Below the pieces are notes generated by a model, which was not told the origin of the DNA, made no database searches, and worked only from the letters and a program-made list of their open reading frames with translations. Position numbers and translations under genes: made by a program. This document shows, piece by piece, positions 15,838 to 33,642 of a DNA stretch of 63,022 bases (its first letter is position 1; each line of letters starts with the position of its first letter). Source of the stretch: Patescibacteria group bacterium (GTDB lineage: Bacteria > Patescibacteriota > Gracilibacteria > BD1-5 > UBA2023); NCBI GenBank assembly GCA_031539165.1, contig JAVKLK010000033.1:1-63022 (forward strand), given 5' to 3'.

Positions 15838-15954
15838 CGGTCAAAAGAAGAACGAAGGAGTACATTTAGAAAATCATTCTATCAGAAAGGAAGTGATTTG
15901 CGATTGATTTTCAAAATATATATCCGATAATGATTCGGTAATCCGTTGTTATTT

Positions 15955-16512
15955 ATGCAGACGTTTCTTAAAACAGAACAAGACGGGAACCGAGTAGAGT
16001 TCCTTGTCGATACCAATATCTTCTCTCTATCAAGCATTCTCAAGGCATCCTATATGTTTTTGGATGTTGCCTATTTCTTCTTCCGCAAGGACGAACAAGG
16101 AAATGTTGTAGTCCAAGTCACCAGAAAAGGTGACACTGGGATTGCTCCTGAGAGCCTCATCCGAGACTACAGTGATGAACTTCTTGCCACCGTTCTCCGA
16201 GAAAATCTTGAGCGAGACAACAAAGAAATTCGTGAAACTATCGTAAAAACCGCTCTTGGCGGGTATGCGGATGTACGAGGACATACGTCTGTAAATACAA
16301 ATCAGTATTCTCAGAATCTAATAGATTTTGATAAAGATATTGATGAAATCCTCAAAGAAATTGAAAGTGATCCAGATCTTCAGATAGACCAAGCAGAAAT
16401 CGATGCCGTTCTCAAAGAGATAGAATCATCTGAATCAAAGCGTAAAAATGGAAGCGTAACTATTGATCCTAATAAAGTTAAAGATGCTAAAGCAAAATTT
16501 TGATCTCGATAA
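15955..16512 (+). CDS. hxsD: HxsD-like protein with acidic repeat tail
   Basis: ATG 15955 (track TTG 15946). VEFLVDTNIFSLSSILKASYMFLDVAYFFF resembles the small His-Xaa-Ser system protein HxsD. The C-terminal tail carries the repeat IDEILKEIESDPD / IDAVLKEIESSES. Reads through TGA 16501-16503 to TAA 16510-16512. The family call is from memory of the family, not a search. Confidence 0.5.
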
Positions 16513-16690
16513 AGAGCTATACTCTGCATCCTCAATAGACACAACACTTGAGGCCTTTCAAGAGGGGTTTGAAGATGTGTATTTCAGTCGAACCGAATCT
16601 GGAATTGAGATACATGCAGAAAGTAAGGATGCCATCGAAATTGCCTTCTTGGAATTCGTGACCTACTGTACTTCTGTTTCTTCCCTATAG
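16484..16690 (+). CDS. second small HxsD-like protein (68 aa)
   Basis: ATG 16484: MLKQNFDLDKELYSASSIDTTLEAFQEGFEDVYF...IAFLEFVTYC. Overlaps the end of the previous CDS in another frame and stops 3 nt before the radical SAM gene. Confidence 0.4.
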   Translation: MLKQNFDLDKELYSASSIDTTLEAFQEGFEDVYFSRTESGIEIHAESKDAIEIAFLEFVTYCTSVSSL

Positions 16691-16693
16691 CTT

Positions 16694-18172
16694 ATGAGTA
16701 TGAATCTCCTTTCGCTTGCAAAAAATATCCATCCTAGTGTAGGATTCTTTCGATTCAAGAAATTGAATGGAAAAATTCTGATAACAAATGAAATAGGTGG
16801 ATGGCACTTCCTTGATGAAGATGAGTTTGCCTCATATGTTCAGGGTAAACTTGAGGATGGACCTTTATATGAAGCGTTAAAAAACAAGCTCTTTATAAAG
16901 GGACCCGATTATGAGGCTCAGATGGCAGCGGTATACCGGAAAAAAAATTCCTTCCTATTTTTCGGACCAACACTACACATGATTGTAACTACTCTTCGGT
17001 GTAATCATGCCTGCAAGTACTGTCATGCGGCTGTAGCCCCAATGACCGCAAAAGACTTGGATATGACAGTAGAAACAGCGGAAAAGGTTGTTGATACCAT
17101 CTTTTACTCATCGTCACCAAATCTGACCATTGAGTTTCAAGGAGGAGAAAGTCTGGTAAACTGGAAAGTTGTACAGTTTGTAATAGGATATGCCAAACAA
17201 AAGGCGTACTTTCTAAAAAAGAATCTTACCTTCTCTTTGGTCACCAATCTGTCTTTGATGGACGATGAAAAACTTACATATCTTCTAGATGAGGGGATTA
17301 ATATCTGTACGTCACTTGATGGAGATACGGAAACACATAATGATCAGCGAGTTTGGAAAGATGGAAATTCATATGAGAAAGCCACCTATTGGATTAAGAA
17401 AATAGAAAATGAGATGAAAAAGCGATGAGATGAATCCTACAAAGTATGAGCCCTAACTACTTGGACAAAAACAAGTATAAAGAATTATAAGAAGATAATT
17501 GATGCCTACGCATCTCTTGGAATAAACACAATTGGATTTAGATGGCTGAATCCGTATGGGTTTGCGGCTGCGCAAAAAGCCGACATGAGTTACTCTCTTG
17601 AAGAATATAAGGCTTTTTATAGGAATTGAATGGACTACATTCTTGATTTAAACAAGAAAGGGGTCTATCTTAGAGAAATGATTTCATCAGTATATCTGCA
17701 AAGCATACTAACAAACGAAGGAACTCAGTTTATGGATATTCGATCTCCTTCTGGGGTAGCACTATGATGAGTGGCATACAATTATGATGGGAAGGTCTAT
17801 GCGTCAGATGAATCACGCATGCTTTGAAGAATGGGCAAACAAGATTTTCTTCTCACTCCTATGCTAGAAACTGGAGAGGCCACATATACAGCCATGGCAA
17901 ACTCAGATGTGACAAAAATCGCAACTCTTGCAAGTACTTTGGATGGATTACCAGGATACAATGACTCTGTTTACAAACCCTATATGGGAACGGATATTAT
18001 CTATTCCTATACTCAATACGGGAATCCTTATAGTACTTTTGCGAAAGATGAGAAGAATAAAATGCATCTCGTAACTCTAGATTATCTGTTTGAAAAACTC
18101 CAAGATCCAGAATCAGCAAAAATATTCAAAAGCTGGGTATTTGGTGAAGATTTTCTAAAATCAGAGGCCTAG
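16694..18172 (+). CDS. radical SAM maturase, HxsB/HxsC-like (rSAM-1)
   Basis: Track ORFs 16694-17428 and 17831-18172 share a frame, joined through six TGA codons. CNHACKYC (CxxxCxxC) and FQGGES. N-terminal FRFKKLNGKILITNEIGGWHFLDEDEF is typical of peptide-maturase rSAMs. No Cys after the core. Confidence 0.85.
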
Positions 18173-18231
18173 CTGGTTCTTCTTGATTCTCGAGATTTAC
18201 ATGCTATACTTAAGTCACTAACATCACTATT

Positions 18232-18717
18232 ATGAGCATTAAACCAAAAAAGGAGCTCCCAAAAATTAAAAAAAATCTCTCTGGATTTCTGACACCAGAG
18301 AGCTCAAAAATAAAAAAACTTGATGCACTCGCTCTAGCAGTTGGAGCACTCGCCCTACTATGAGGTGTATCGGAAGCAGCAGCAAGCCACTCTAGCTCTA
18401 TAACTCCATCTCATAGCAATGCTGGAAGTCATGGAAATGGAGGAATCCAATCTGGAACCGCCTCGCACGTGAATGGAAATGGTATTGATGGAACAGTATG
18501 GTATAACCAAGGATTTGCAAACTGCGCCGTGAGTCAAGTAGTGAATTGACACGTAAGTGGAAGTATCCCGAGCCAAGTTCCTGGAACGGCAGATATTTCT
18601 GGATGAAATATTATGGGGACAAATTTATCTGCACACTCTAACAGCACAGTAAACAGTCACGCGAGTCATGGAAGTCATGGAAGTCATGGAAGTCATGGAA
18701 GTCATGCTGCTTACTAA
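18232..18717 (+). CDS. hxsA: His-Xaa-Ser repeat protein, putative RiPP precursor (HxsA-like)
   Basis: 161 codons. Lys-rich N-terminus, one hydrophobic segment LDALALAVGALALLGGV, then scattered SHSS, SHSN, SHGN, SHVN, GHVS, AHSN, SHAS, ending SHGSHGSHGSHGSHAAY. Three in-frame TGA codons. Confidence 0.75.
18664..18708 (+). repeat. tandem 9-nt coding repeat (agtcatgga x4 plus agtcatgct)
   Basis: Encodes (Ser-His-Gly)4-Ser-His-Ala at the C-terminus of the HxsA-like CDS. Confidence 0.95.
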
Positions 18718-18726
18718 ATTTTAGAC

Positions 18727-19422
18727 ATGAACAAAATAAAACAGTCACCTCAGATTATTATCGCTAGTATTCTGGCGTTTCTCATAGGATGTGGAGCTAT
18801 GTTCGCATGGTCTCAGCTACAGCATGTCTGAAATGGGAAATCAGAGAAAAAAGAAACTCGTGAAATGGTGCAAAAAAATTCTTCTGGCACTACTACCGGA
18901 ACCTGAGAGGTACCTTCTATTCGGATACCAACCCAATCTGATGTGTTTATGCAGAGCTTCTCTTGAATTATAAATGGAGAAGGATTTGATGCAAAGTTCA
19001 CAGCATACGGTCAAGCAAAAAAAACCATAGGCGACTATATAGCGAATGGAAGTGGTGGAATCTTTTACGAGTATCCAGGAACCGATTATGTAGTTCCGTC
19101 CCTTTTTGTCTGTGAAACCCTTACAACAGCAAAGAATATGAAAGACTTTGAAGGAGAGCTCCGGAATTCTATTCGCAAGTACCAAAGTGTTTTTACAATA
19201 CAGTCTAAATCTTCAGAAAACCCTGATTTTAAAATGCTCAATGAACATCTTCAGTCGTTTATATCAGGAAAAATACCATTTGAAGCATATCAAAAACTCG
19301 TAAGTCCTCTTCTTCAAAAATATGAGAAAGAGAGCAAGCTTTTTTCTTTCTTTCAAGAACTTATTGATATGAAAAAGGATGACACAGTTGACTGTGCCCA
19401 GCTCTCAAGAAAATACTTCTAA
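18727..19422 (+). CDS. putative lipoprotein
   Basis: ATG 18727, 9 nt after the precursor stop. Signal peptide with lipobox FLIGC. Joined through three TGA codons to track ORF 19138-19422. Confidence 0.6.
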
Positions 19423-19425
19423 GTT

Positions 19426-20898
19426 ATGTCCCGCGCCCATATACAATTTAGGGGGGTTATCGCCGATATTGACCAGAAGAAGAGTGGATGACATTTTCCC
19501 GATCAGCTCATTATTCGGGTTTGAAAATGATGTAACTTTCGTTGTGCCTTTTGTAATGTTGCAGAAAATGAAAAAGTCTTAAGCATAAAGGCATCACTCA
19601 AGGAAATTCTTGCCATAACCTTCCGCAAGATTCTTCATTCGAATCTTACCTCTGGAAGGATTAATGTTACCGTCTCTTGAGGCGAACCAAGTATATTTCA
19701 GGCAGAAACTATTTTTGTATTGAGATATTTTCGAAAGTATTTTGAAAAAAGAGGAATTACTGCTCAATTCGATATTCAAACGAACGCATCAAATATTGAT
19801 CAGAGATTCTCCGAAATACTCAAACAGGAATGAGTGGTTCAAGCTCTTGTTTCAACACATGCTCATGATCCCGATATATACAAAAAAATTATTGGTGTTC
19901 CCTATGAAACTCTGGGAAAGAAGGCTGAGCTAGGAATACGCAATCTCATCGAATGTTGAATTCCCGTTTCTCTTAATATAGTAATGAACTGAGTAAATGC
20001 TGATCATTACTTTGAACATATACAATACCTCGTTGCCTCTTTCCCAGAGATTGAACTTTATAACCTGGGTATGATGCAGCCTCACTGAATGGCACAAAAG
20101 AATTTAGAAGAGCTCTATCTTCCTTACGAAAAAGGACACCATCAGTATAACAGAGCAATTCACTATCTTAAGTGAATTGGGAAACGAGTTCATTCACATC
20201 TCGTAGGGCCACCTGTATGCTATATGGACGATGTAAGCTCAAGTCTTGAGTATCTTCATAACCGGAACATTTTCAGGGAATGACCTCAATCACAAACGCT
20301 TATTCAGGATATCAATGATGATAACAAAACTCATACCTCAGCCTGCAGAATGTGCAGAGCCAAGAGAGTATGCAGTGGAACATGGAAAGAATATGCTGAC
20401 AAACAGACGCTCCATCCAATCCCCACTGGACAATTTCTTATAAGCTCAAAATGATGCCATATATTTGAGAATAAAGCTGCTGCTGAAAAGCTTTATTCTC
20501 AAGGAATTCGTGAAGTATTCATTCTTGGAAAAGACAGTAATCAAATTATTGATGACATTGCTACGGTTAAGAATATCTGATACGAATCTATCATTTTAGT
20601 AGATACATTTGAAAATGTGAAAAATCCTTCGGACATATCCTGAGTAACAATTCAATCTTGGTTTGAAGACATGAAGAAGTACGGTCTTCAGAAGCTGCTT
20701 CATATAGAAAGATACAACCGAGAGAGTGGATTTCAGTTCCAGATTGACTCAGATGTACATATTCCCTATTTATCTTCAAAAGAAGCTGAGTGGATAAATC
20801 AACACCCTTTTCCAAGCATAGTATACCATGTTCACTCCTGGAGTCATGAGGCAAAGATGAAATGTCAAAATCGTTCAAATATAGTTTTCTGAAAATAA
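19426..20898 (+). CDS. radical SAM protein with C-terminal Cys motif and ~170 aa extension (rSAM-2)
   Basis: ATG 3 nt after the previous stop. IIRVGKGCNFRCAFCNV (CxxxCxxC). VSGGEPS with the first G encoded by TGA 19678-19680. Later CRMCRAKRVCSG (CxxCx5C). More than ten in-frame TGA codons. Tail matches track ORF 20671-20892. Confidence 0.85.
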
Positions 20899-20901
20899 CA
20901 T

Positions 20902-22347
20902 ATGAAAGTGGTAATTTTTTGATTTGGAAGACAAGGAAAAAAATATGCCTCGTATTTTAAATCCAAGGGAAATCACCAAATATTGATTGTTGGGAGGCAA
21001 AAAAGAAATGATGCCGATGGGCAGAAATATTGTGAATATGAACATTTCTTACAAGAATATAGATATACATCCTTTGATCTTGCGATAGTTGCAGTATCCC
21101 CCTTAAATGAACAAGAAAAGGTCATTCAAAACATTACCGAGCTTCCCATTTCGAAGATTCTCATAGAAAAACCCATAGGGAGTAGCCTGCTCCTAAAAAA
21201 ACTTTGCTCTAGAGAAAATGTTTTTTACTACTTCGATGAACTCTTTCATCCAGTATTCAACATGATGCTCAATCCAGAACGCTTACATATAGAAGCTGAG
21301 GATGAGAGTGATGCAATGAATATTATTGATCATGCACTCTCTTGATTTCTTTATCGAAAAGACTTTGAGTCAATCATATCAAATCTTTCAATAGAATATA
21401 AAAAATGATCTCCCAGCTATACTATTTATGAAAACGGAGAGACAATCGTTCATAAAGATGGAAATCTATCGTTCGGGAATCATGCTTTCTTCGAGTTAGC
21501 TTTTGATGCTGGAGTAAAATCTACTCTAGAAAGTATGGAAGATCCTGTAATCTGGGAAACAATTCGTATAAATAGCATATTCCTCCGGGAGTTTACGGAG
21601 CGCTGGAAACAAAAAAAGAATGTAGACTTATTTATAGGATTAAATGAATGTGAAGGACAATGTTTATTTTGTAATAAATGAGTGGGTCTCGTATGAGTTA
21701 CTGAGAGTGGAAAACAAAGTCAAGAAAACTGCATCCGCTACACTCCAAAAACAGAGGCAGAAGTATTCAAGATTGCAAAAAAGTGTTGGTGAAGTCCTGA
21801 AGTAATAACTATAACGGGATACGAGCCTATTCTTTACCCCAGGCTTACGGAACTACTTGACATAATTAGGGAAAGTAATCCCTCGGCCAAGATTCGCCTA
21901 AGAACGTCTGGATTTATAGAAATAAACCCAGTTCTCTACGAGAAGATAGATGGCGTCGAGCTTCCTATATATGGCTCAACTGAATTCATTCAAAATGCCA
22001 TGGGGGGCAACACAAAAGCATGGGAATGACTGCAGAAGAATATTGAAATAATCCAATCATATTGATTCATTGGGAAAATATTTTTTCAGACCATTCCTCT
22101 TCGAGAAAATATCCACGATATCAAGCATATACTTAACATGGTAGATGCTCTTGGAAATCAGAATGAGTTTCGGATTATATACCCCTATTTCATGCCAACT
22201 ATTCATATGGAACAGTTACTAAGTCGTGCAGAGGTGATAAAAACACTTCTGTCTGAATTGCCAGAAGTACTGAGAAAAAAATGTACTTTGGTTAACTTTC
22301 CAAGAAAACCATATTTAGATAACTTATTTAGAAGCATATGCCACTAG
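20902..22347 (+). CDS. Gfo/Idh/MocA-type NAD(P)-binding domain fused to a radical SAM domain (rSAM-3)
   Basis: N-terminus MKVVIFGFGRQGKKYASYF (GxGxxG, with one G encoded by TGA) and ILIEKP (the EKP signature). C-terminal half has CEGQCLFC (CxxxCxxC) and ITITGYEPIL. Joins track ORFs 20983-21345 and 22138-22347 in one frame. Confidence 0.8.
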
Positions 22348-23057
22348 TATCACGCCCTGTTTGATTCTGATTTAATATTCTCAGTGATGCTAAAAGCGAA
22401 TTTCACAGTCTGTTTCATGGAAATGAGATGGCAAGTTATTGCAAAATCATAAGTAGTGAATCTCACCCTGATATTCCAACCATAAAAGAAGTATATTTTT
22501 CATTTTGGAAAACAAGCGCCTACTCAAACGGAATTTTAAATTTTACAGAACTTCTCTCTCGGAGTCATTCACAAGAAGTACCAAAGATAGAAGCTCTATA
22601 CGAGAATCTTCTCAAGAAACAGTGAAAGCCAGGGGAAATATGAGAGATACACTACGGAATAGATTACTTAGACCATGATTTAGCCATATATTTTTGTTTT
22701 AAGGATAAATTAACTATCACAAAACTTCTTTCGGATGCATGTAAACTTCCGGAGGACTTTTTTTCGGAGTTCTTTTGGGAAGAGGCACGGAGGTTTCATC
22801 TTAAAATAAAGTACCATAGAAATGGGCAGGATATATCTGGAGTATTCACTTCGCATAATACCCCCGATATCAATGGCTTCCTCAAGTTTTTATCGAAATA
22901 TGAATCCGAAAAGCTCAAAGATATAGAGGCATATCACTCTAAAATAAAGGAAGAGTTTGTTATATATAATATTGAGTACTCGTTTAATTTTACAAAATGA
23001 AAGCTTGAAAATGTAGTATATTTCGTACTTCCTCGGTTTTGAGAGATTAGTGAGTAA
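22338..23057 (+). CDS. hypothetical protein
   Basis: ATG 22338 overlaps the previous stop by 10 nt (alternative ATG 22428). Includes track ORF 22428-22625 and reads through TGA codons to TAA 23055-23057. No motif recognised. Confidence 0.5.
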
Positions 23058-23784
23058 GTGACTGGTCTTTATATTTCTTTCAGATATGGAGATATCCGAG
23101 ATAGAGCGTCTTCATATCCGCATCGAATGCATTCCTAAGATCAAGCTGAATTCTTGAAAAGAATATTCTCCAAAAACGAGATTCAGAGAATTTATCACGC
23201 CAAAGATAATCTCGAAGGCACGACTTCAGGAAATGGATATCACAGCTCGAATTTATAAATAAAATAGCAAAGTCCTCTTCTCGAAAGGAGTAGCGTAGAG
23301 ACATAAAATCAAGGATTCCAATATCTCATGTTTCCATCTCAAAGAAATTGGAATTATCGAGACTTCCATGAATTAAAACTTTGCCAGAATCATTTTGGAT
23401 AGCATGAAGCGAAGATAGGGTAGCCCCCAGTTTCCCTCCTGTCTGAACAGAATACGTTGGACGTGTCGCTCATTTGCGCACATTCTCTATCTTGAGAAAT
23501 GAATAAGGTCATAGCTCACCTGAATCAATAATTCTTGGTATACGAATAGAGGAATCAGCAAGCAATTGATAAAAGTAATATTCCTTGTCCCTCTCGTGAG
23601 AAGAAACATAAAATTTATAAACCCACTGATATGCTGGATTAATGCAAACATACCCATAGTTTCCTGTAACTACCCGGAAGCCCTGCCCAGATAAAAAATC
23701 GTTCGGAAGAAGAGAGATAACTTCAGTCTTTCTCTCTTCCAATAAAACTCTTCGAAGCCGAATATCCTGGAAAAAATCGTTCAT
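23047..23784 (-). CDS. APH/choline-kinase-like phosphotransferase-fold protein
   Basis: Track ORFs 23509-23784 and 23080-23304 share a frame, joined through TGA codons. VLIHGSLDNSNFF (compare HGDLGDSNIF of aminoglycoside kinases) and GILDFMSLRYSFREEDFA (DFG-like region). Confidence 0.6.
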
Positions 23785-23840
23785 ACGTTATATAGTACTC
23801 TCTACCCTCTCGTTCTGGAAATTAATTTGCGAGGAAAAAA

Positions 23841-25136
23841 ATGAAACATACACTTCCCTCAAAAAGAAAGTTTTCTGTTAAAATGCCAACATTACTTGAG
23901 TCACTTCTCTGAGAATACGGTTCGCTTCTTGCGTGCTCCTTATTAGAAGTTCCAAGTTTCTCACAAATAGAAGAAATAGTGCAGAATACGGCAGTTCCCT
24001 TATCTACAAAAATTGCTGCAGCATCCAGACTGGAAAATATACCCTTCACCTCAGACGTATTAGATTTTCTTTGAAATGAAGAGATACATCCATCAATCCA
24101 AGCCGTCATAGTCAGTAAGTTTACCTTTGGGAAAGAAGTTAAGATTCTTGATTTTACAGATAGAATAAGTGATCTCCCCCTTCTAGTCCGGGAAGTTTTC
24201 TGGGCAGTTTTACCAATTCAAAGACGTGACATAGCTCAGATTATGAAGTCCACTTTGAGCCTATCAGAAAAGCAAATATTAGCTAAAAGAGCTCGAAATA
24301 GCATGCCTTCTCCAGAGCTATCATTTTGATTTCAAAGAATGCAACACTATCTCTATACCTGAAAGAGAGAAAGTAAATCTAATGCAATTAGTTGATGAAA
24401 TGAAGATTTTGAGAAACAAAAAACAATAATTGCATTGAAATTACATAAGCAAACCGAGCCTATATCAGTCAGCGAATACTGAATCATTACAGAAAATTCT
24501 CACTTCAATTCTTCTACCAGAGAAAAACATGCAGTTGCAGTAAATCGATATCAGCTTTCTCTTCTTCAATGGAAGAATCATTTCAAGATTATACCAAACA
24601 AAAGGAATCTTATTTTTTATTACAGGAAAGAACAGGGGGCTTTTGATCCGCACTACATTGAGATGGTACGCTTCTTAAAATGGTATATAGCTTCTTCCGG
24701 GTCACCACTATATACGGATATAAAGATAGCCCTTCGAGATAGGTCAAGTTTATTGCATGCAAAAAATATTTTCGGGGGAGAAGACTCTGACTATATCAGT
24801 GAAGAGTGACCCTTATTTCAAGCAAAGACAAGTGTTTTCTCAGATATGATTCACTTAAACCATGGAACTCCTGAAAAAACACCAGGGAGTTTAAGTATAG
24901 TCTGAGATGCAATTGCATCAGATCCTGAAAAATACTGCCCGTCATATATCCCCTTGCATCTTCTCTACTTTGGTGGAAGTAACTACACAACGATATATAG
25001 AAACTATAAATGAATACTACCAGGAAGTAACGAACTCGGTTTCCCTATGAATAAAAGTATGCGAGAGATTCTATCAGAGCTATTCGATGCTATAAGATGT
25101 GCTGAACTCACTCAATTGAAAAACGCTTGAATATAA
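23841..25136 (+). CDS. hypothetical protein (431 aa)
   Basis: GAGGAAAAAAATG ribosome-binding context at 23831-23843. The frame is open from 23841 to TAA 25134-25136 only when about nine TGA codons are read as sense. No motif recognised. Confidence 0.6.
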
Positions 25137-25166
25137 AATATTAAAAGTTGCCGAAGGAAAAACGAA

Positions 25167-26516
25167 GTGTACACTTTGAGCATGAAAAATAATCTTCTCG
25201 CCAAAGAAAAAACTACGAAAGAAAATCGAATTTGGGTCAGAATTGCAGCAGCCTGCAATGAGAAATGTAAATTCTGCCTCGATAGCGAAGCGCAGGATGG
25301 TCGATTGATTCCGGAAGATGAGGTAAAGCAAAAGATTCGCGAGGCTTTTGTTGCAGATACATATAATAGAGTGATTCTCTCATGAGGAGAAGCAAGCATT
25401 AATCCAAAGTTTTCTGAGTATATACAGTATGCAAAAGAAATTGGCTACAATCGGGTGCAGACGGTCACAAACGGTAATATGTTCTTCCGAAAAGAATTTT
25501 GTGACAAAGTAGTGAACGCCTGATTGGATGAGGTTACATTTTCAATGCACGGACACACTCCAGAGCTACACGATTATCTTACAGCAACACCCGGATCTTT
25601 TAAACGTGCACTTATCGGAATAGCAAACCTAAGAAAGTATCATCCTCATGTAATACTCAATATCGATATCGTGGTGAATCGACTCAATGTATCATTTCTT
25701 CCAAAAATAGTCTCCTTGTTCTTGAGATTTGGAATTATGGAATTCGATATACTCCAGATAATCCCCTTCTGAAGAGGTTTCAAAGAATTCAAAAATGAGC
25801 TTTTCTATAAAATCGAGGATGTACTCCCTCAGCTTCATGAAACATGGAATCTCTCAAAGATTCCATGAATGTATATTTGGACAAACCGTTTCCCTGCCGA
25901 AGCTTTTGAATGATACGAAGATCTAATACAGGATCCACGGAAAATAAAATCTGAGACTCTCGGAGAAGCAAGAAGTGAATACGATACTTTCATTCAGAGT
26001 CATGGAAAGAAGAAGCCTCGATGCTTCTGAGAAAGATGTGATGTCTGTTTCTTACAGCAATATTGTCATGATTTCCTCAAAAACAAAGATGCTCTTTTAG
26101 ATGGTAGAAAATACATCATTTGAGACAGGGCTTCCGGAGATATATCAGAAGCGGAACTCGTAGTTCTTAGGGGAGAAGAATTTCCAAGTGAGGTATATCG
26201 AAAATATGGGAATAATGGTGAAGAATTCATAGAAAAAATACAATCCCTGAAGCTAACAAAGACACAGCAGATTGTTAACGTACCAAAGTGCATACGAGCA
26301 GAGAATAACTCAGGGCAATATGAATGGTATTGAGATACGAGAGTTATTTGAGATGCTGAAGAATATACCGGACAGTACATTAAGAACTTCTATCGGAAGA
26401 AATCCCCGCGCTGCAAGTCCTGCATTCATTTTGAGAAGTGTGAGGGAATACATATAAATTTCATTCGATCCTATGGATTCCAAATAATGAAACCTATCCA
26501 GAAGAAAGAAGCATAA
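25167..26516 (+). CDS. radical SAM protein with C-terminal Cys-rich region (rSAM-4)
   Basis: Track ORFs 25167-25385 and 25524-25772 plus the downstream frame. AACNEKCKFC (CxxxCxxC). ILSGGEAS with a G encoded by TGA. CFGERCDVCFLQQYC and RCKSCIHFEKCEG near the C-terminus. GTG 25167 follows AAGGA; alternative ATG 25182. Confidence 0.85.
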
Positions 26517-26565
26517 ATCTCTGAAAAAGGTTGCTATTGTCGGAATTTAGGATTATATATTCGGT

Positions 26566-27555
26566 ATGGCAAACATCTGATACATCCAAGTAAATCGATA
26601 CTGCAACAATCAGTGCCATTTTTGTTCAAACCCATCAAACGGAAAAAACATAAGCTATGAAAGAGGGCAAAAGATTATCGATGAGTTTGTATCAAAGAAA
26701 TACAAGGGAATAATATTCACAGGCGGTGAGCCAACTCTATCTCCCGATTTAGCTCGTTGGATAGCATACGCGAAGTCTGTATGAATGGAATCTCGAGTAA
26801 TATCAAACTGAATGCGCTGCTCAGATTTCTGATATACAAAAAAACTTGCAGATGCTGGACTAGAACTCATTCACTTTTCTGTATTTTCGTACAATCCAAA
26901 AGTACACGACTTCCTCACAGATACTCCAGGATCATGGAAAAAACTAATGCTTTCCATATGAAATGCCCTAAAACTGGGTATTAGAGTTCAAATCAATACG
27001 GTCATTAATCGCTATAATCAGAACCATCTAGATGTAACAGTGAAATTTCTCTGTGGACAATTCCCAGAAATCCGTCACTTTGTATGGAACAATCTCGACC
27101 CCCTCATGATGCGAAAAACGGAGATTGCATACTCTACACTTCCAGATTTCTCTACATTTGAGAGGCCACTACAAAAGGCTATGACTTTTTTAGAGGAAAC
27201 TGGAAGAACATTCCGGGTGGAACGGGTACCTCTTTGTTATATGAGAGGCTTTGAGCATTTCTCAACAGAAACCAGAAAGATAGTCAAGGATGAAGAACGA
27301 ATTGTTCACTTCCTAGATGAAAGAGAAGTGGTAGAGCAAAAGTCAGAGTGGTTTTTTCATGACAAATCAGAGACTTGCAAAGGCTGTGATTTGAATGCAA
27401 TTTGTGCTGGAATCTGGCTTGCAAAACCAGCAAATATTTTCTGAGTCGATCATCCATGATATTTCAAAGATATCGAATATAAACCTCAAAAGCTTTCCTT
27501 GCAAGAAAAAGAGCTTATTATCTCAAAAATTAAAAATACTGGCAAATATGCCTAA
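26566..27555 (+). CDS. radical SAM protein (rSAM-5), paralogue of rSAM-4
   Basis: MANIGYIQVNRYCNNQCHFC (CxxxCxxC), FTGGEPTL, HDFLTDTPGSWKKL (compare HDYLTATPGSFKRA in rSAM-4), and C-terminal CKGCDLNAICAG. Includes track ORF 27040-27444. Confidence 0.85.
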
Positions 27556-28435
27556 TATTATTATCAATAATATCTGTAATCAGCGCTGCAGCTATTGTTT
27601 CGCAATGGATAGTATGACAGTGGATAAACTCCCCTTGCAGAATCAATCACTCGGAACATACCTTCAAATATTAAAATTCCTGAAAAAAGAGGGGGAGAAA
27701 GAGGTTCGACTTCTATGAGGTGAACCCCTTCTACATCCAGAAATATCAAAGTTCATAAAAATTGCCAACAAAGGGTGATTCTACACGCGAATATTCTCTA
27801 ATATTAATTTCTCTCCTGAATTTCTCCAGAAAACACTTCAGGGAAATAGCATCCCCAATGCTACTAACTGCAATATCAATAATCGTGATTTCTATTCAGA
27901 TAGCGAGTATGCTCAAGTGAAAAAAAACATTATTTACCTTCGAGAGAGCGGCTGTGATGTAACGATTGGCTACAATGTATACTCTTTAGAAAAACCATTC
28001 TCGGATATAATAGATATTTCAAGGAGCACGGGAATTCGGAGAATTAATCTTAAGGTTACCAATACCGCGTTGGGATCCCCCCTTATTGTTGACACATCAT
28101 CTAGAGAGTTTGGTAAATACTTAGCTACGGCTGTCATTCCATATCTCGGAGAATTTGAGTTCCTATTTTCTTGTTGATTAAGCAAGTCGATTTTCAGTGA
28201 AGAAGAAATTACCACCATGAATCAGCACTGACTTCTGCCAAAATGGTGATGCGATGGAAATATGGGAAAATACGATATAGATGTAGACGGATCAATATTT
28301 AAATGCTTTCCAACTCGTCCCCTTTACCTAAAGAAATCTATTCATATAAGCAATTTCTCTCCGAGACAAAAATCCATAGAAAAATTTGCTCAGCTAGAAA
28401 ACTCTACCGACATATGCATAGCTCATAAACTTTAA
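27548..28435 (+). CDS. radical SAM protein with partial SPASM/twitch-like motif (rSAM-6)
   Basis: ATG 27548 overlaps the previous stop by 8 nt. NNICNQRCSYC (CxxxCxxC). LLGGEPLL with the first G encoded by TGA. GCDGNMGKYDIDVDGSIFKCFP resembles the start of a SPASM domain. Includes track ORF 27917-28177. Confidence 0.8.
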
Positions 28436-28439
28436 ATCT

Positions 28440-29501
28440 ATGTTTCCTTTTACTCTCTGATATTCAGAAAATCCCGTTGTTCAAAAATATCAAGACTTAT
28501 ACGCAAAAGATCTCCTAGAAATAGCAATGGAGCTAGAGACATCTTTTGAGAAAATGGATTCTAAATTTCTCCTTCTTGGAGATATATCAACTACGCTTGA
28601 AGCTTTTCGAGCCAAGGAGTTAGAGGCAAGTGAAGCGCTAAAATTTCTCCAACAAGAGTTTGAATATTGGAAATCGAACTGTAAATCACGTATGTTTTCA
28701 TTTTCATGAAACAGTATCCCTGGAGTAGCAGTGCTTCTCTCAGAAAAAGACGCAAATATCCATGCACGAGTACATGATGGACACCCTGAACATGTGCGAA
28801 CCAATGTCGTTTGATGATGGGGGAAGGTTCCAGTAGAAGACTGGATCACCCTCTATGAGAAAAGCTTTTCAATTCTCAAAACATCCTCACCCTGATTCTG
28901 CAATGAACTTTCATGAATCATAAATAAAATAATTCCAATGGACGTGAGTATCAGGGTACATAATTCTTGCTCGTATGATCGATGCATATGACATCTTTAT
29001 TTAAGTTACCCCTTGGAAATAGATGTCCCCGAACTAGCCGTACTTGAAGCTCTCATACATGAGTCGAACCACAATAAATTAAACCTTATTCTAAAGCAGG
29101 ATCCCCTCGTTCTAAATGGACGTGAAACCAAATATTATTCCCCCTACCGCCCAGATGCGCGACATATTCATGGGATTTACCTTGGACTCCATGCAATGGC
29201 TTGAGTATTTTATACACTATTCGAACTTCACTCAACTGGGAAATATCTTCTCAATCATCGATGGCTAGAGAAGGCAACGGCATACTTCATCAAAGATAGC
29301 CTTTCTATAAAAGTACTCGATCGATATGCACAACTTACAGATCTTGGGAAAACTGTCTATGAAGAAATGAAAGCGGTTCATGAAGAAACCGCGAAAATGG
29401 TTAGTCAGTGTGTAACACCCGATATTCTTAATAGAGCAAAACACATAAATCAGGAGCATTTTATGAAAGTGCAGATGATTCACTCAGATTTGTTATATTA
29501 A
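28440..29501 (+). CDS. HExxH-motif domain protein (family co-occurring with rSAM peptide maturases)
   Basis: ATG 4 nt after the rSAM-6 stop. LIHESNHNKLN (HExxH), then YSPYRPDARHIHGIYLGLHAMA. Joins track ORFs 28527-28709 and 29013-29204 in frame. Confidence 0.65.
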
Positions 29502-30728
29502 TTAAAGGTGGAGGGCACTTTGAATCCAGCGAAGTAATTCATAGAAGATAGACTTCCCTGATACCCCTGTAATCACCCACCCTAAAAATCAGTAAAAGAA
29601 GAAGGAGGGTGGTTGATGCAGAACAAACTCTCGGAATAAAAAGGCTTCTCCATAATCATGAATTCGTTGTTTGAATGCGGAAAGAAGTGTTAGATGTTTT
29701 GGGACAATAGAAAAAACAGGCTGAGAAGTATCTATTGAGAGAAATGAAAGATCATTCTTTTCAGGATTGTAAGCATTCTTCTCACGAGCTATTCTCATGA
29801 AAGAATCCCAAAGTATAGATGTTTCTTTCATTGCAATCAAATCTCATACCCTCAAATCAGAAACAGGAATACGCAAATTTCCTCAAATCAATGTCCATAT
29901 ACTACGAATCCTAGGAGAGAAATAAAATATCTTCTCTAGAAGAAAAACTGATACTGTCTGCCAGAAAAGAAAAAATATTCCAGCAATAAGAAGTACAGAA
30001 AAGTACGATTGAATAAATACCAAAAGAGATTTATTTTGGAAGCTTTCAAATAAGACGGCAAGTATCATAAGAAGTGTTCCAAATAGAAGCACTCGGAGCT
30101 GTTTCAAAGTGAGTTTTGGAAGAAGAATCATGAGTATTCATGCCTTCATAATCAAATAATTCTCTCTACCAAAACTCACTATAACCCTATCAATATCTAC
30201 GAGTAGCCCCAGTCCAAATGGTGATGCAGAGAGGAAAAAGAGAGATGAGAAAACAAGCATTCTAATTCACTGAATTCCCCAAGAGCGAAATTTAAACGGG
30301 TGTTCCTCTAAGTTTGGAAGAATTCAACCTAAGCCAAAAAAAAGAAGTATTCGTTGAAAGATTGCCAGCAGAAATACTCCTGCTGCCATATTCGACAGAA
30401 GAGCGAAGGGAATGCTTTTAAGAAAACCTATACAAAATATAACACCAAGAGCGAGAATATTTTCAAGCTCCAAGATACGCCTCACATAAACAAAAAATCA
30501 GAGGGAGAAAAAAACAATCAGTGTTAGATAGTCATGAGTGGCTAACTCCGGTCCTAATTCGTGCCTTACCAAAAGGAGGCCAAAGATACAACTCACGAGA
30601 ATCGGGACAATTCAGTACTTTTTTTTCTCAAGGAAACATAGAAATAAGAGTACTACAGCGAAAACCCCCCATTCAATGGAAATGATTGGAGGGATTCCAG
30701 AGAATATAGTGGGGGGAACTCAAGGCAT
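29502..30728 (-). CDS. polytopic integral membrane protein
   Basis: Joins track ORFs 29883-30131 and 29589-29840, extending upstream to ATG (rc 30726-30728) through TGA codons. About 8 hydrophobic segments and a soluble C-terminal part. The start is 1 nt after the upstream stop. Confidence 0.6.
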
Positions 30729-30729
30729 T

Positions 30730-33642
30730 TTATCGAATCGAACTAAGAAGCGGTGGTGGGTCCTTAATGAAATTTGGATTATATTCTATGACTACGGGAA
30801 ACGCGGCGAAAGAATCAGTCGTCGTGCTGATAGTGCGTAGTCTTGGGGCAGCGCCAGAACAATTCCCGTCAAGATTACACGTTGCCCCTCCCATAACCTT
30901 CGTAGTGGTATATCGGTTTGGTATTTTAATTCAAGCAGTACCACCAGAATTTTCTGCATCAACCAAGGTGTATCGACGGAGGAAATTTAAATCATACTTT
31001 TGAGCAAGATCTCGGTCACAAGAAGCATTTCCAATAATAGACGGACAGTACACCGGGCTCTTTGTAGCACCTCCAAGAGAGTTTGCGCTGATTACCGATC
31101 CATAGATATAGAGTTGATTCTGAAGCTTATCAATTCCGACACCCGCTCCAAGCTCGTCTGTTCCATCAAATCCAACAAGTGCTCCATCAGCATACAGAAA
31201 TCCTGATATGTTTGTAACAGAAGGATCAATGTAAATATTTCCTCCTTGTCCCGAATCGTCTTTTAGGGCAATAATAGCAAGATTCCCTCCCCCTGTATCG
31301 TACGCAATATTTGATCGAATAAATACATTCAATCCCTTCGTGACAATCGTTCTCTTCCCAGAAACGGTATATACCCCCGAAGCATCCTGAAGCGAAAGTC
31401 TCTGCCCTCCCGATGTAGCTTCATAGAGATATACTACTCCGTCATCTTGTGCAATGGATGCTCCATTAAGCATACTTCAGGATGTGATGCGACCGGCAGC
31501 CATATCAGAAGAACTCAGAGAACCAGAAACAGGCTCTGTTCGAAGTGATCTTGTGCCAACAGAGGCAGCTCGACGAATAGCCAATCGAGTATCTTCCTTC
31601 GAAACTCAAGACAATACGGTCACATTCTCCGAGAATTGATTCGTTGTAATCTGATTTGCCTCATCCGATGCGGTGAGTCCAACTATTTTTACTCCATTTT
31701 GGAGCGTAGTACTCCGAACATCTCCCCAGTAACTCGTTTTTCAAACAACGGGGCCATTTATAACAGCCCTCTTTCCGTCAAAACTGTACGCAAGGTGGGT
31801 AGAAAATACCGTGTTATTCGTTCGTCCAACTGTTGTTCCTGGAATCTGCTCCAGTGTAGTGTAAAGGGGGCTTTGAGTGGAGCTACTCGATGAAGGAAAT
31901 GCAAATTGCTGAGCAAGAAGATTTCGAGATACCCCTATGCTCGCATTCTCCATTGAAAGATGGTCTGTACCAGCATGAAACGTGAAAGAAGGTGTAGATG
32001 AATTATCTACAAACTGAACAGAAATTTCAGGAGAAGCAGCATTCAATGAAGTCTGACTTTGTATTGAAAGAGTGCTCTGCTGAATTGTTCCCTCGATTAA
32101 TCCACCCGTTCGTATGTCTCCAGTAAGTTCCAGAAGATACGGAACTTTCCATTTCCCATCAACAGACGCAGAATCAGAAACTACCGTGTTTGTAAACTGT
32201 GGATCAGTGACTCGAATTCGCATCTCATTAAGCGTAAACGCAGACGATGAATCCGAAGGAGTTGTACCTGGAGCATACCCGGATGCCGTAGGAGCATACG
32301 CTGAAAAGTTCACTCGATACTTTCATGAGTTCACCCCATTTGAAGTAAGTACTCCTGGAATAGAGAACGTCTCCGTACCTACTGGAGCAATGGGTATACG
32401 AACCGAACTCGGATTAGCTGTATTAGAAACAAATACGGCTGAGTCATCTGCTCGTGTATGTTGGTTTAAGTAATTCGTGTTTTTGTACGTAAACTCTTGC
32501 GCAAGAGTTCGATTAATTCCCGATGCAGGAAGAATAGGATTTCCATACCCATCCCTCAATACATACGTGAGTTCATACGGTGTTCCATTTGCTACTGCAG
32601 AACCAGGAGAAATGCTATTACCATCTACTGAAAGCGTTGGGGCATGCATTGGATTTGCATACACCACATAGGAGAATCCTGCCGATCAGCCTGCACAGTT
32701 CCCTGCAGCATCACATACTTGAGTAATATTCCACTGATAGGGGCGTCCAGCATTGCTCAAGTTCTGTCGAACATTGCTGATATCTCCCGTATATCGAATC
32801 GTATAATCTGTCGTAGTTCCAGAAACTGGAGTTTGAGCATTAGTCGTTGCATTGGTAAAGTTTCCCGACCAGCTTGCAAGAGGAGAGCCGGCTCCATCGC
32901 TATATACTGCTGAAAATCCCTGAGCACTGTTTGCTACTAAGTTTGGTCCACCAGAAGAATCGGTGAAGTTCCCCGTTGTTACAACCGGTGGTTGTGTATC
33001 AACACGGTATGTGTTCGATCCATAGCGAGGAACAGAGAGATTTCCTGCCCCATCAACAGCAATCGCAGCAAATTTATAGGCCCGGTTTCTATTGGAACGG
33101 GCAGAATCCGTATATACAATTGATGTGTTTGCGGTCAGTCCTCCAATCTGAGTATACGAAGTCCATCCACTCGAGAAATCTGGAGAAGCGTCCGAGTATG
33201 AAACGTAATAATAGTATCCCGAAAGGTTCGATCCTCCATAATCGGATGCTGTTACCGACACAGAAACACTCGGGTTGTTTGACCATCCATCCGTATAATT
33301 CACTGAGGCGGCCGATGGAACTGTGGCATCCCAGTACTGACACCCAATTCATCCAGCCCAAGCACTGTATACTCTAGCCTGTGCAAGATACTGTATACCG
33401 TATGTACCTGGATAGAGACTATCGAGAGAAGGGTTCGGTCCAGTGCCGTCAAACTGACCATCAGCAGAACACTGGGTAATGCTTGAGCCTGTAGAAAGAG
33501 AATACCCGCCATACCAAGCAGCAGAAGTGGTCTGCATGCAAGCAAGAAGGATAAGTATGCCACATGAAATCTGGCAAGAAATCTGAATTAGGCGTGAATA
33601 TCTCATAAAAGGGGAGGTAACACCCCTATAGTAGTACATCAT
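30730..33642 (-). CDS. large secreted/surface protein (~970 aa)
   Basis: Five track ORFs (33349-33642, 32686-33303, 32323-32667, 31741-32313, 30931-31473) share one frame, joined only by TGA codons. Signal-peptide-like MRYSRLIQISCQISCGILILLACMQTTSAAW (alternative start 33606). Ser/Thr/Gly/Asn-rich, beta-rich repeat-like segments such as NTYRVDTQPPVVTTGNF. Confidence 0.7.

What the first reader, a model, noticed from the sequence alone, without database searches (positions are those of the whole stretch)
25167..29501. Three back-to-back radical SAM paralogues plus a HExxH protein with no precursor of their own
Seen: rSAM-4 and rSAM-5 share blocks (FSMHGHTPELHDYLTATPGSFKRA versus FSVFSYNPKVHDFLTDTPGSWKKL) and a C-terminal CxxCx5C(x)G motif that rSAM-2 also has. 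The rSAM-6 start overlaps the rSAM-5 stop by 8 nt. The HExxH gene (LIHESNHNKL) starts 4 nt after rSAM-6. I found no additional short His/Ser-rich or Cys-rich ORF in 23841-29501. Established: HExxH-motif domain proteins co-occur with rSAM/SPASM maturases, and some are annotated as aKG-HExxH-type peptide beta-hydroxylases. Inference: this string either acts on the HxsA-like peptide encoded 7 kb upstream or on the 431 aa protein at its head.
Basis: partly seen in the sequence, partly recalled or inferred. Interest (0 to 1): 0.6.

Follow-up and report, generated by a model that had tools for sequence, protein, structure and literature searches.

The report
Tailoring enzymes for HxsA protein tail
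Three radical-SAM enzymes and an oxygenase that seemed to lack a substrate are the conserved end module of an enlarged His-Xaa-Ser (HXS) cluster in a tiny Gracilibacteria genome, and comparison across genomes ties two of them to specific features of the C-terminal tail of the HxsA protein encoded 7 kb upstream.

Summary
Read with TGA as Gly (code 25), 25167-29501 encodes rSAM-4, rSAM-5, rSAM-6 and a stand-alone aKG-HExxH oxygenase. The genes are packed too tightly for a small ORF between them.

- In 203 other genomes of the order, rSAM-4 and rSAM-5 form a near-obligate pair (53 genomes have both).
- 55 of 56 rSAM-4 genomes and 55 of 60 HExxH genomes also carry HxsB. Where both lie on one contig, HxsB is always upstream on the same strand.
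- p431 is a lineage-specific insertion, absent from all 26 related Hxs loci.

New result: the enzymes co-vary with the HxsA tail.
- rSAM-4 goes with long (HGS)n tails without a terminal Cys (44/50 against 5/30 genomes).
- rSAM-6 goes with a C-terminal Tyr (16/17 against 1/63) and often lies beside that gene.
- The window's HxsA ends …SHGSHGSHGSHGSHAAY, so it has both features.
- HExxH shows no such link.

This is a new variant of the known HXS system, which is an anti-phage defence in E. coli. This scan noted a similar expanded cluster in another Gracilibacteria genome. The chemistry and biological role remain inferred.

The parts
15946..16512 (+). HxsD (188 aa)
   Evidence: TIGR03976 at 54 bits, cut-off 50. 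Conserved upstream of HxsB in relatives.
16694..18172 (+). HxsB radical SAM maturase (492 aa)
   Evidence: TIGR03978 at 464 bits, cut-off 370. No conserved auxiliary Cys.
18232..18717 (+). HxsA-like His-rich protein (161 aa), the proposed substrate of string 2
   Evidence: Sub-threshold HxsA3/HxsA4 matches. The profile of 11 homologues gives E 1e-38, and this is the only copy in the genome.
18283..18300 (+). Leader motif G18-F-L-T-P-E23 of HxsA
   Evidence: F19, L20 and E23 are invariant in alignment A1. It resembles a prepilin-peptidase site (from memory).
18658..18714 (+). HxsA C-terminal tail HASHGSHGSHGSHGSHAAY: an (HGS)n run plus a terminal Tyr
   Evidence: These tail features co-vary with rSAM-4 and rSAM-6 across 80 genomes.
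18727..19422 (+). p231, unknown, conserved only in close relatives
19426..20898 (+). rSAM-2 (490 aa), HxsC-like with one conserved 4-Cys group
   Evidence: TIGR03977 at 72 bits, below the 268 cut-off. Orthogroup confined to family f1. Cys conservation.
20902..22347 (+). rSAM-3 (481 aa), Rossmann plus radical SAM fusion
   Evidence: Pfam Radical_SAM at 46 bits and a weak GFO_IDH_MocA match. Split into two genes in relatives.
22338..23057 (+). p239, unknown
   Evidence: Weak homologue at the same position in L022.
23047..23784 (-). APH-type kinase-like protein (245 aa). It breaks the + strand string into two transcription units.
   Evidence: Pfam APH at 28.5 bits. Homologues lie on the + strand in L022, L037 and L045.
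23841..25136 (+). p431, a lineage-specific gene at the head of string 2
   Evidence: No homologue in related loci. One truncated self-hit. Distant relatives of the C-terminal domain lie elsewhere. An AGGA lies 5-6 nt before the ATG.
25167..26516 (+). rSAM-4 (449 aa; the start may be ATG 25182): radical SAM with two invariant extra 4-Cys groups
   Evidence: HxsC4 at 124 bits and HxsC at 65 bits, both below cut-off. Orthogroup of 18 rows, support 99. Present in 56/203 genomes. Cys conservation.
26566..27555 (+). rSAM-5 (329 aa): the rSAM of the island closest to HxsC, with one invariant extra 4-Cys group. Obligate partner of rSAM-4.
   Evidence: TIGR03977 at 94 bits, below the 268 cut-off. Present in 54/203 genomes, 53 of them shared with rSAM-4. 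Cys conservation.
27548..28435 (+). rSAM-6 (295 aa): radical SAM linked to HxsA variants that end in Tyr
   Evidence: Only generic rSAM matches. Sixteen other genomes have it. Y-ended HxsA in 16/17 against 1/63 genomes.
28440..29501 (+). Stand-alone aKG-HExxH-type oxygenase (353 aa)
   Evidence: TIGR04267 at 63 bits, cut-off 40. Model pLDDT 95.3. It matches only 8s5f ChlB-HExxH and 22ob SjiH. Motif alignment.
29502..30728 (-). mem408, a polytopic membrane protein at the position held by an A24-type leader peptidase in relatives
   Evidence: Only the C-terminal ~200 aa resemble the F3-type proteins (E 2.6e-4 and 4e-4). No A24 domain was detected.

Best explanation
String 2 is the conserved distal tailoring module of a Gracilibacteria-type, much enlarged HXS (His-Xaa-Ser) cluster. 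Its substrate is the single HxsA-like protein at 18232-18717, which is why it has no precursor of its own. HxsD, HxsB and HxsA form the constant head of the cluster, and a variable set of enzymes follows.

Shown by comparison: rSAM-4 and rSAM-5 are an old, near-obligate pair of HxsC-like enzymes carrying extra Fe-S cysteine groups, and they go with long C-terminal (His-Gly-Ser)n runs that lack a terminal Cys. rSAM-6 goes with a C-terminal Tyr.

Inferred: rSAM-4/5 modify the HxS repeats of the tail, as HxsC with HxsD does on the last HxS repeat in E. coli. rSAM-6 modifies or needs the terminal Tyr. The aKG-HExxH oxygenase then hydroxylates a residue of HxsA (His, Asn or Asp are precedents) or trims it oxidatively.

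The 431-aa gene is a late insertion that happens to head the second transcription unit. That unit exists because a minus-strand kinase-like gene interrupts the + strand string.
For: Identity of the parts: HxsD and HxsB above cut-off; HExxH above cut-off; HExxH fold matches ChlB-HExxH only. Synteny: in L022, L038 and L039 the order is HxsD-HxsB-HxsA-p231-rSAM2-rSAM3-x-rSAM4-rSAM5-rSAM6-HExxH on one strand, without p431. In L026 and L030, HxsA heads a 15-gene string that ends in rSAM4-rSAM5-x-HExxH. Distribution in 203 genomes: rSAM-4 with HxsB 55/56 and with HxsA 53/56; HExxH with HxsB 55/60 and with HxsA 56/60. In all 31 genomes where both genes share a contig, HxsB lies upstream of rSAM-4 on the same strand at 6-43 kb. 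rSAM-4/rSAM-5 pair: 53 genomes shared, 3+1 unshared, mostly at contig edges. Orthogroups are old and have the shortest branches in the tree. Co-variation with the tail: rSAM-4 against (H[GAS]S)>=4 ends without Cys, 44/50 against 5/30, with 8 within-genus contrasts up and 0 down. rSAM-6 against terminal Tyr, 15/17 (16/17) against 1/63, with 6 contrasts up and 0 down. 'Y$' is the top feature of 211 tested, p 3e-13. rSAM-6 lies directly beside the Y-ended HxsA gene in G161, G449, G451, G456, G421, G331 and G059. Natural control G182: the HxsA heading the rSAM-4/5 string ends (HGS)6RW, while the second HxsA heading another enzyme set ends GGWC. The own genome has one HxsA-like gene, and 6 of its 12 rSAM genes lie here. 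Precedents: HxsC/HxsD modify the last HxS repeat (PMC13128918); aKG-HExxH enzymes hydroxylate His and Asp after rSAM cross-linking, or Gln and Asn, and can cleave the backbone (PMC12636437).
Against: HxsA and these enzymes sit in one island, so some co-variation could come from co-inheritance rather than function; the Fisher tests are not corrected for phylogeny. Five rSAM-4-negative genomes still have (HGS)n ends, and 6 rSAM-4-positive genomes miss the strict tail definition. HExxH shows no link to any HxsA feature, and in G035 it lies 96 kb from rSAM-4. None of rSAM-2, -4 or -5 reaches the HxsC cut-off. In the window a minus-strand gene and p431 separate string 2 from HxsA. The promoter scan was uninformative: 41 sites found against 49 expected.
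Confidence: 0.78

Rival explanations
1. String 2 acts on the 431-aa protein encoded at its head (p431), as a protein-modification operon with its own large substrate.
For: p431 is co-directional, sits 30 nt upstream of rSAM-4, has a plausible ribosome-binding site, and heads the second transcription unit.
Against: The rSAM-4/rSAM-5/HExxH module is conserved in more than 50 genomes, but p431 is absent from all 26 related loci. Its only close hit among 5.8 billion proteins is a truncated call of the same gene. Relatives of its C-terminal domain occur in 4 of 88 family genomes, away from Hxs loci, one of them in a genome without HxsB.
Confidence: 0.03
2. Only the radical SAM enzymes act on HxsA. 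The HExxH oxygenase, with the adjacent A24-type membrane peptidase, is a separate sub-module serving another substrate, such as the neighbouring giant secreted protein.
For: HExxH shows no association with any HxsA feature. It stays paired with the A24-like gene even when far from the rSAMs (L036, and G035 at 96 kb). Giant secreted proteins flank it in 8 of the first 17 loci and in the window. Nineteen genomes have HExxH without rSAM-4, and 15 have rSAM-4 without HExxH.
Against: 56 of 60 HExxH genomes have HxsA, and the 4 exceptions are incomplete assemblies. HExxH normally closes the same co-directional string as HxsA. Characterised family members act on small ribosomal peptides, often after an rSAM step. 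The giant protein is not always adjacent.
Confidence: 0.13
3. String 2 makes or modifies a small molecule or cofactor (MoaA-, NirJ/AhbD- or viperin-like chemistry) and merely sits beside the Hxs genes.
For: One source annotates rSAM-4 relatives as MoaA. Sub-threshold NCBIfam matches to AhbD, NirJ, MoaA and viperin, and PADLOC pVip matches of 50-68 bits.
Against: All these scores are far below the curated cut-offs (for example viperin 58 against 180, MoaA 59 against 284) and cover only the common rSAM core. The distribution is nested within Hxs-positive genomes, and there is specific co-variation with the HxsA tail. The HExxH family is known for peptide substrates.
Confidence: 0.05

Closest known systems
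HXS (His-Xaa-Ser) anti-phage system HxsD-HxsB-HxsC-HxsA of E. coli and Klebsiella (Li et al., Nat Commun 2026, PMC13128918; NCBIfam TIGR03976-03978)
   Same: HxsD and HxsB score above the curated cut-offs. A His-rich HxS-repeat protein with a processed-looking N-terminal leader lies directly after HxsB. HxsC-like rSAMs (rSAM-5, -2, -4) are present. The inferred site of action on C-terminal HxS repeats parallels the +8 Da modification of the last HxS repeat by HxsC/HxsD.
   Different: About 14 genes and six rSAMs instead of four genes and two rSAMs. No protein reaches the HxsC cut-off. HxsA is 130-180 aa, has no Pfam domain hit, and carries an (HGS)n tail. The extra enzymes include an rSAM-4/5 pair, rSAM-6, aKG-HExxH, a kinase-like protein and a Rossmann-rSAM fusion. 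The host is a code-25 Gracilibacterium with an 0.89 Mb genome, whereas the paper places 99.7% of HXS systems in Pseudomonadota. The function here is untested.
aKG-HExxH peptide oxygenases (ChlB HExxH domain, PDB 8s5f; SjiH 22ob; BpmH; PflC/PosC)
   Same: TIGR04267 above cut-off. Full-length fold match to 8s5f (E 4e-9, TM 0.62-0.70). Shared HExxHxKL and SP[YW]RxDxR motifs. Genomic association with radical SAM enzymes and a ribosomal substrate.
   Different: Stand-alone rather than fused to the rSAM. About 16% identity to ChlB-HExxH. The subfamily of 124 proteins carries only a Candidatus Gracilibacteria label or no name. Substrate residue and reaction are unknown. It is constantly paired with an A24-type membrane peptidase gene in relatives.
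RiPP-type radical SAM maturases with auxiliary Fe-S clusters (SPASM/twitch; for a C-terminal Tyr precedent, mycofactocin MftC, from memory)
   Same: CxxxCxxC plus conserved C-terminal Cys groups that include CxxCx5C. They act, by inference, on a ribosomally made substrate encoded in the same cluster. rSAM-6's dependence on a C-terminal Tyr recalls MftC.
   Different: No Pfam SPASM hit. rSAM-4 has two 4-Cys groups with its own spacing. The mycofactocin model scores are 49.5 and 38 bits for rSAM-4 and -5 against a cut-off of 265, and it is not among the top matches for rSAM-6. The substrate is a 130-180 aa exported protein rather than a short peptide.

Membership tests
HXS system (canonical HxsABCD) | HxsB radical SAM maturase (TIGR03978) | tested here: met
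   464 bits against a cut-off of 370.
HXS system (canonical HxsABCD) | HxsD small protein (TIGR03976) | tested here: met
   54 bits against a cut-off of 50.
HXS system (canonical HxsABCD) | HxsA repeat protein recognised by an HxsA model | tested here: inconclusive
   HxsA4 at 31 bits (cut-off 55) and HxsA3 at 27.5 bits (cut-off 65). HxS repeats are visibly present.
HXS system (canonical HxsABCD) | HxsC radical SAM (TIGR03977) above cut-off | tested here: not met
   rSAM-5 94, rSAM-2 72, rSAM-4 65 and rSAM-3 26 bits against a cut-off of 268.
HXS system (canonical HxsABCD) | Four-gene architecture HxsD-HxsB-HxsC-HxsA (over 99% of systems, PMC13128918) | tested here: not met
   About 14 genes in the order HxsD-HxsB-HxsA-...; six rSAMs.
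HXS system (canonical HxsABCD) | Protection against phage | not testable with these tools
   No assay is possible. PADLOC 2023 has no HXS model.
aKG-HExxH peptide beta-hydroxylase (TIGR04267 / IPR026337) | Family HMM above the curated cut-off | tested here: met
   63.3 bits against a cut-off of 40.
aKG-HExxH peptide beta-hydroxylase (TIGR04267 / IPR026337) | Invariant HExxH and downstream SPxRxDxR motif | tested here: met
   H207, E208, H211, Y233, S234, Y236, R237, P238, D239 and R241 are invariant in 46 sequences. They align to ChlH and SjiH.
aKG-HExxH peptide beta-hydroxylase (TIGR04267 / IPR026337) | Fold of the ChlB HExxH domain | tested here: met
   pLDDT 95.3. 8s5f at E 3.6e-9 and TM 0.62-0.70 over ~345 columns; the next unrelated hit has E 0.46.
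aKG-HExxH peptide beta-hydroxylase (TIGR04267 / IPR026337) | Fe(II)/aKG-dependent hydroxylation of a peptide | not testable with these tools
   Needs an enzyme assay.
HxsC4 (NF038332) | Family HMM above cut-off | tested here: not met
   rSAM-4 at 124.5 bits and rSAM-5 at 83 bits against a cut-off of 500.
SPASM/twitch radical SAM peptide maturases | CxxxCxxC plus conserved auxiliary-cluster cysteines | tested here: met
   rSAM-4 has C286/291/294/300 and C375/416/419/425, invariant in 18 sequences. rSAM-5 has C224/271/274/280, invariant in 17.
SPASM/twitch radical SAM peptide maturases | Pfam SPASM domain hit | tested here: not met
   Only Radical_SAM and Fer4_12 were found for rSAM-4 and rSAM-6.
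Prokaryotic viperin (pVip) | NF038283 above cut-off | tested here: not met
   rSAM-5 at 57.7, rSAM-4 at 49.5 and rSAM-6 at 42.6 bits against a cut-off of 180. The PADLOC matches cover only the N-terminal core.
Peptidase A24 (type IV leader peptidase), for the gene next to HExxH | Pfam PF01478 above cut-off | tested here: not met
   The window's mem408 has no hit. Relatives L026 (42.8 bits) and L037 (33 bits) exceed the 26.5 cut-off.

The most novel reading that the evidence does not exclude
Gracilibacteria run a modular 'tail code' on HxsA. Interchangeable C-terminal tail types ((HGS)n-aromatic, terminal Tyr, GGWC/Cys-rich) are each read by a dedicated radical SAM enzyme set. rSAM-6 would carry out a previously undescribed modification of a C-terminal Tyr, and the rSAM-4/5 heteromer would modify tandem His-Gly-Ser repeats. 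After leader removal at G|FLTxE by a dedicated A24 prepilin-type peptidase, the result would be a combinatorially tailored surface effector.
Probability: 0.3. Interest if true: 0.75.

Novelty: new variant of a known kind. Interest (0 to 1): 0.6.

Why it matters
The HXS system was shown only in 2026 to be an anti-phage defence, and the chemistry of its radical SAM step (+8 Da on an SHRSS motif) is unsolved. The Gracilibacteria clusters are a natural experiment. HxsD, HxsB and HxsA stay constant while tail types and enzyme sets are shuffled, so enzyme-substrate pairs can be read from comparative genomics. That yields two testable pairings: rSAM-6 with a C-terminal Tyr, and rSAM-4/5 with (HGS)n runs. 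It also yields a stand-alone aKG-HExxH oxygenase with a defined candidate substrate. In addition, an 0.89 Mb genome spends about 1.5% of its DNA and half of its radical SAM genes on a single small protein, which argues that the product matters to these poorly characterised, small-genome bacteria.

Tried and rejected
- Small-ORF search in all six frames under code 25: nothing lies outside the large genes.
- p431 as substrate: rejected.
- PADLOC scan: only generic viperin-core similarity.
- Promoter and terminator scan: 41 promoter-like sites against 49 expected, so uninformative. One weak site at 23768-23796 lies before p431.
- Link between HExxH and any HxsA 2-mer or 3-mer: none survives multiple testing; best p is 8e-3 over about 200 features.
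- mem408 as an A24 peptidase: no Pfam hit. hhalign to F12 gives nothing, and only the C-terminal half resembles the F3-type proteins.
- The primary ChlB-HExxH paper is not in the library, so the exact Fe and aKG ligands could not be checked.
- G343's 30%-identity rSAM-4 hit was left out of the orthologue counts as a paralogue. G442's 36% rSAM-6 relative was kept and counts as an exception.


Full report
**1. What is there**

Under table 11 the region is a mosaic of short ORFs. With TGA read as sense, a dense gene string appears. TGA is glycine:
- It supplies the first G of the radical SAM GGE motif in rSAM-2, rSAM-4 and rSAM-6.
- 49% of the orthologue residues aligned to TGA codons are Gly; Trp is not among the top eight.

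Database relatives are labelled Candidatus Gracilibacteria. The genome is 0.89 Mb in 46 contigs and estimated 100% complete.

| Gene | Coordinates |
|---|---|
| rSAM-4 | 25167-26516 |
| rSAM-5 | 26566-27555 |
| rSAM-6 | 27548-28435 |
| HExxH | 28440-29501 |

The 8-nt overlap, the 4-nt gap, the quoted sequence blocks and the CxxCx5CxG motif are all real. The intergenic gaps leave no room for a small gene, and all ORFs of 20 aa or more in the region overlap the large genes.

**2. Identity of the parts**

The upstream genes are:
- HxsD: TIGR03976, 54 bits against a cut-off of 50.
- HxsB: TIGR03978, 464 bits against a cut-off of 370.
- A 161-aa His-rich HxsA-like protein.

rSAM-5, rSAM-2 and rSAM-4 are HxsC-like but far below the HxsC cut-off: 94, 72 and 65 bits against 268. 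rSAM-4 is also HxsC4-like at 124 bits against 500. rSAM-6 gives only generic radical SAM matches.

The HExxH protein passes the aKG-HExxH domain model (63 bits against 40):
- A profile of 46 homologues aligns HExxHxKL and SPYRPDxR to the solved ChlH and SjiH chains.
- A confident model (pLDDT 95.3) matches only ChlB-HExxH (8s5f, E 3.6e-9, TM 0.62-0.70) and SjiH in the PDB.

It is therefore a stand-alone member of the aKG-HExxH oxygenase fold.

**3. Are the three rSAMs paralogues?**

rSAM-4 and rSAM-5 are: 33% identity over 163 aa, E 9e-26. rSAM-6 is related only at superfamily level.

A tree of 123 rSAM cores from the window and 26 related loci places each window enzyme in its own well-supported orthogroup:
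- The rSAM-4 group (18 rows) and the rSAM-5 group (17-18 rows) span both families of the order and have the shortest branches.
- The rSAM-2, rSAM-3 and rSAM-6 groups are smaller.

Cysteine conservation:
- rSAM-4 has two invariant extra 4-Cys groups.
- rSAM-5 and rSAM-2 have one each.
- rSAM-6 has four invariant Cys with unusual spacing.
- HxsB has none.

**4. Does string 2 travel with Hxs genes?**

I searched all 204 genomes held for the order with each component.

| Component | Found in (of 203 other genomes) |
|---|---|
| rSAM-4 orthologues | 56 |
| rSAM-5 | 54 |
| HExxH | 60 |
| HxsB | 100 |
| HxsA-like | 85 |
| rSAM-6 | 16 |

- rSAM-4 and rSAM-5 share 53 genomes. Most of the unshared cases are genes cut at contig edges.
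- 55 of 56 rSAM-4 genomes and 55 of 60 HExxH genomes have HxsB.
- 53 of 56 rSAM-4 genomes and 56 of 60 HExxH genomes have HxsA. The exceptions are mostly fragmented assemblies.
- In all 31 genomes where HxsB and rSAM-4 share a contig, HxsB is upstream on the same strand, 6-43 kb away.

Gene maps of 26 loci show a constant head (HxsD-HxsB-HxsA), a variable middle with up to a dozen further enzymes, and a recurrent tail: rSAM-4, rSAM-5, sometimes rSAM-6 or a glycosyltransferase, then HExxH.

The closest relatives (L022, L038, L039) have the window's gene order on one strand and lack p431.

**5. The 431-aa protein**

- It has no relative in any of the 26 loci, even with a profile of its C-terminal domain.
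- Among 5.8 billion proteins the only hit is a truncated call of the same gene.
- An exhaustive scan finds 25 distant relatives of residues ~225-430 with no Pfam domain.
- In the family they occur in 4 of 88 genomes, away from the Hxs loci.

It is a lineage-specific insertion, not the conserved substrate.

**6. Co-variation with the HxsA tail**

I collected 98 HxsA-like sequences from 80 genomes. All share a basic leader with an invariant F19-L20…E23, a hydrophobic segment, a VNGH motif and a His-rich C-terminal tail. The tails differ, and the enzymes track them.

*rSAM-4 and the (HGS)n run*
- Genomes with rSAM-4 have an HxsA ending in four or more tandem H[GAS]S units plus at most three residues, with no Cys in the last six: 44/50 against 5/30.
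- In ten genera containing both states, the contrast points the same way in eight and the opposite way in none.
- The median longest repeat run is 6 against 3.

*rSAM-6 and the terminal Tyr*
- Genomes with rSAM-6 have an HxsA ending in Tyr: 15/17 against 1/63, with six of six informative genera in the same direction.
- One apparent exception, G456, is an assembly ambiguity; the gene ends HGSHGSY.
- In an unbiased scan of 211 two-residue features, "C-terminal Y" is the top correlate of rSAM-6 (p 3e-13). For rSAM-4 the top correlates are the absence of a terminal Cys and the presence of SHG/GSH.
- In most of the family-f2 genomes that have rSAM-6, the gene lies directly beside the Y-ended HxsA gene. 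The link also holds in genomes that lack rSAM-4/5: G331, G421, G059 and G343.

*A natural control*
G182 has two HxsA genes. The one beside HxsB heads the rSAM-4/5 string and ends (HGS)6RW. The other heads a different enzyme set, the set found alone in G125, and ends GGWC.

*The window*
Its HxsA ends SHGSHGSHGSHGSHAAY. It has both features, and the window has both enzyme sets.

*HExxH*
It shows no such association.

**7. Mechanism**

Shown by comparison: string 2 belongs to the HXS-type cluster, and two of its enzymes are tied to tail features of HxsA.

Inferred:
- rSAM-4/5, an obligate pair of HxsC-like enzymes, modify the HxS repeats of the tail. In E. coli, HxsC with HxsD is proposed to install a +8 Da change on the last HxS repeat.
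- rSAM-6 modifies or requires the terminal Tyr.
- HExxH hydroxylates HxsA or trims it oxidatively. Family members hydroxylate His and Asp after an rSAM cross-link, hydroxylate Gln and Asn, and can cleave the backbone.

The caveat is linkage. Genes of one island are inherited together, and my tests are only partly corrected for relatedness.

**8. Comparison and novelty**

The canonical HXS system has four genes, and the paper places 99.7% of examples in Pseudomonadota. No paper in the library describes Gracilibacteria radical SAM or HXS clusters.
- rSAM-4 relatives are named only "radical SAM protein" or MoaA-like.
- HExxH relatives are named only "hypothetical" or "HEXXH motif-containing protein".

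Earlier notes of this scan already called this island, and one in another Gracilibacteria genome, an expanded HXS system. What this report adds is the enzyme-to-tail pairing and the rejection of p431.

I rate it a new variant of a known kind.

**9. Limits**

There are no expression data and no biochemistry. The exact metal and aKG ligands of the HExxH family could not be checked in the primary paper.

Noticed in passing
window 29502-30728 (-); L026:15969-17327, L037:1032-2300, L022:16015-16953 and 14 other loci: In 17 related loci the gene beside HExxH, on the opposite strand, is an A24 'type IV leader peptidase' family membrane protein (42.8 and 33 bits against a cut-off of 26.5; F3 against F12 hhalign probability 98.5%). 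Every HxsA leader carries G-F-L-[TS]-x-E with F, L and E invariant, which looks like a prepilin-peptidase cleavage site (from memory). The window's mem408 holds that position, but only its C-terminal ~200 aa are similar. The genome's one A24 gene lies on another contig (G000:C28:25383-25742).
   Followed up: partly
window 16000-30000: The Hxs island has 36-39% GC against 42-47% in the flanks. None of the five other genomes of the same genus has HxsB, HxsA, rSAM-4, rSAM-5, rSAM-6 or HExxH. The island therefore looks acquired, or lost in the sister genomes.
   Followed up: partly
L044 + L021 (G201:C4:171-205 kb); L041 (G342); L028/L029 (G182): Some relatives have 30-40 kb co-directional clusters with two or three HxsA paralogues of different tail types and up to about ten radical SAM genes. 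G182 carries two enzyme sets in tandem, each headed by its own HxsA.
   Followed up: partly
L026:14063-14842; L030:13255-14845: A GT2 glycosyltransferase with a sub-threshold match to SunS-type peptide S-glycosyltransferases (50.6 bits) sits between rSAM-5 and HExxH in two genomes. This suggests glycosylation as a further optional tailoring step.
   Followed up: no
window 23841-25136: Residues ~225-430 of p431 define an uncharacterised domain with 25 distant relatives (E down to 7e-26) in proteins of 206-907 aa, with no Pfam match.
   Followed up: partly
window 25167-25184: rSAM-4 orthologues align only from residue 5-8 of the GTG-started ORF, so ATG 25182 may be the true start (444 aa).
   Followed up: partly
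window 30730-33642 (-) and F4 proteins in L022, L023, L027-L029, L032-L034, L045: A giant (835-1667 aa) secreted Ser/Thr/Gly/Asn-rich protein lies just beyond the HExxH/peptidase pair in the window and in at least nine related loci (28-33% identity to the window's 970-aa protein in L037-L039). It may be linked to the system or merely mark its insertion site.
   Followed up: no
L125 (G456:C72:20092-20902): An ambiguous base inside the (HGS)n repeat of an HxsA gene causes an apparent frameshift. Tandem HGS-coding repeats may be prone to assembly errors, so tail lengths from draft genomes are approximate.
   Followed up: yes
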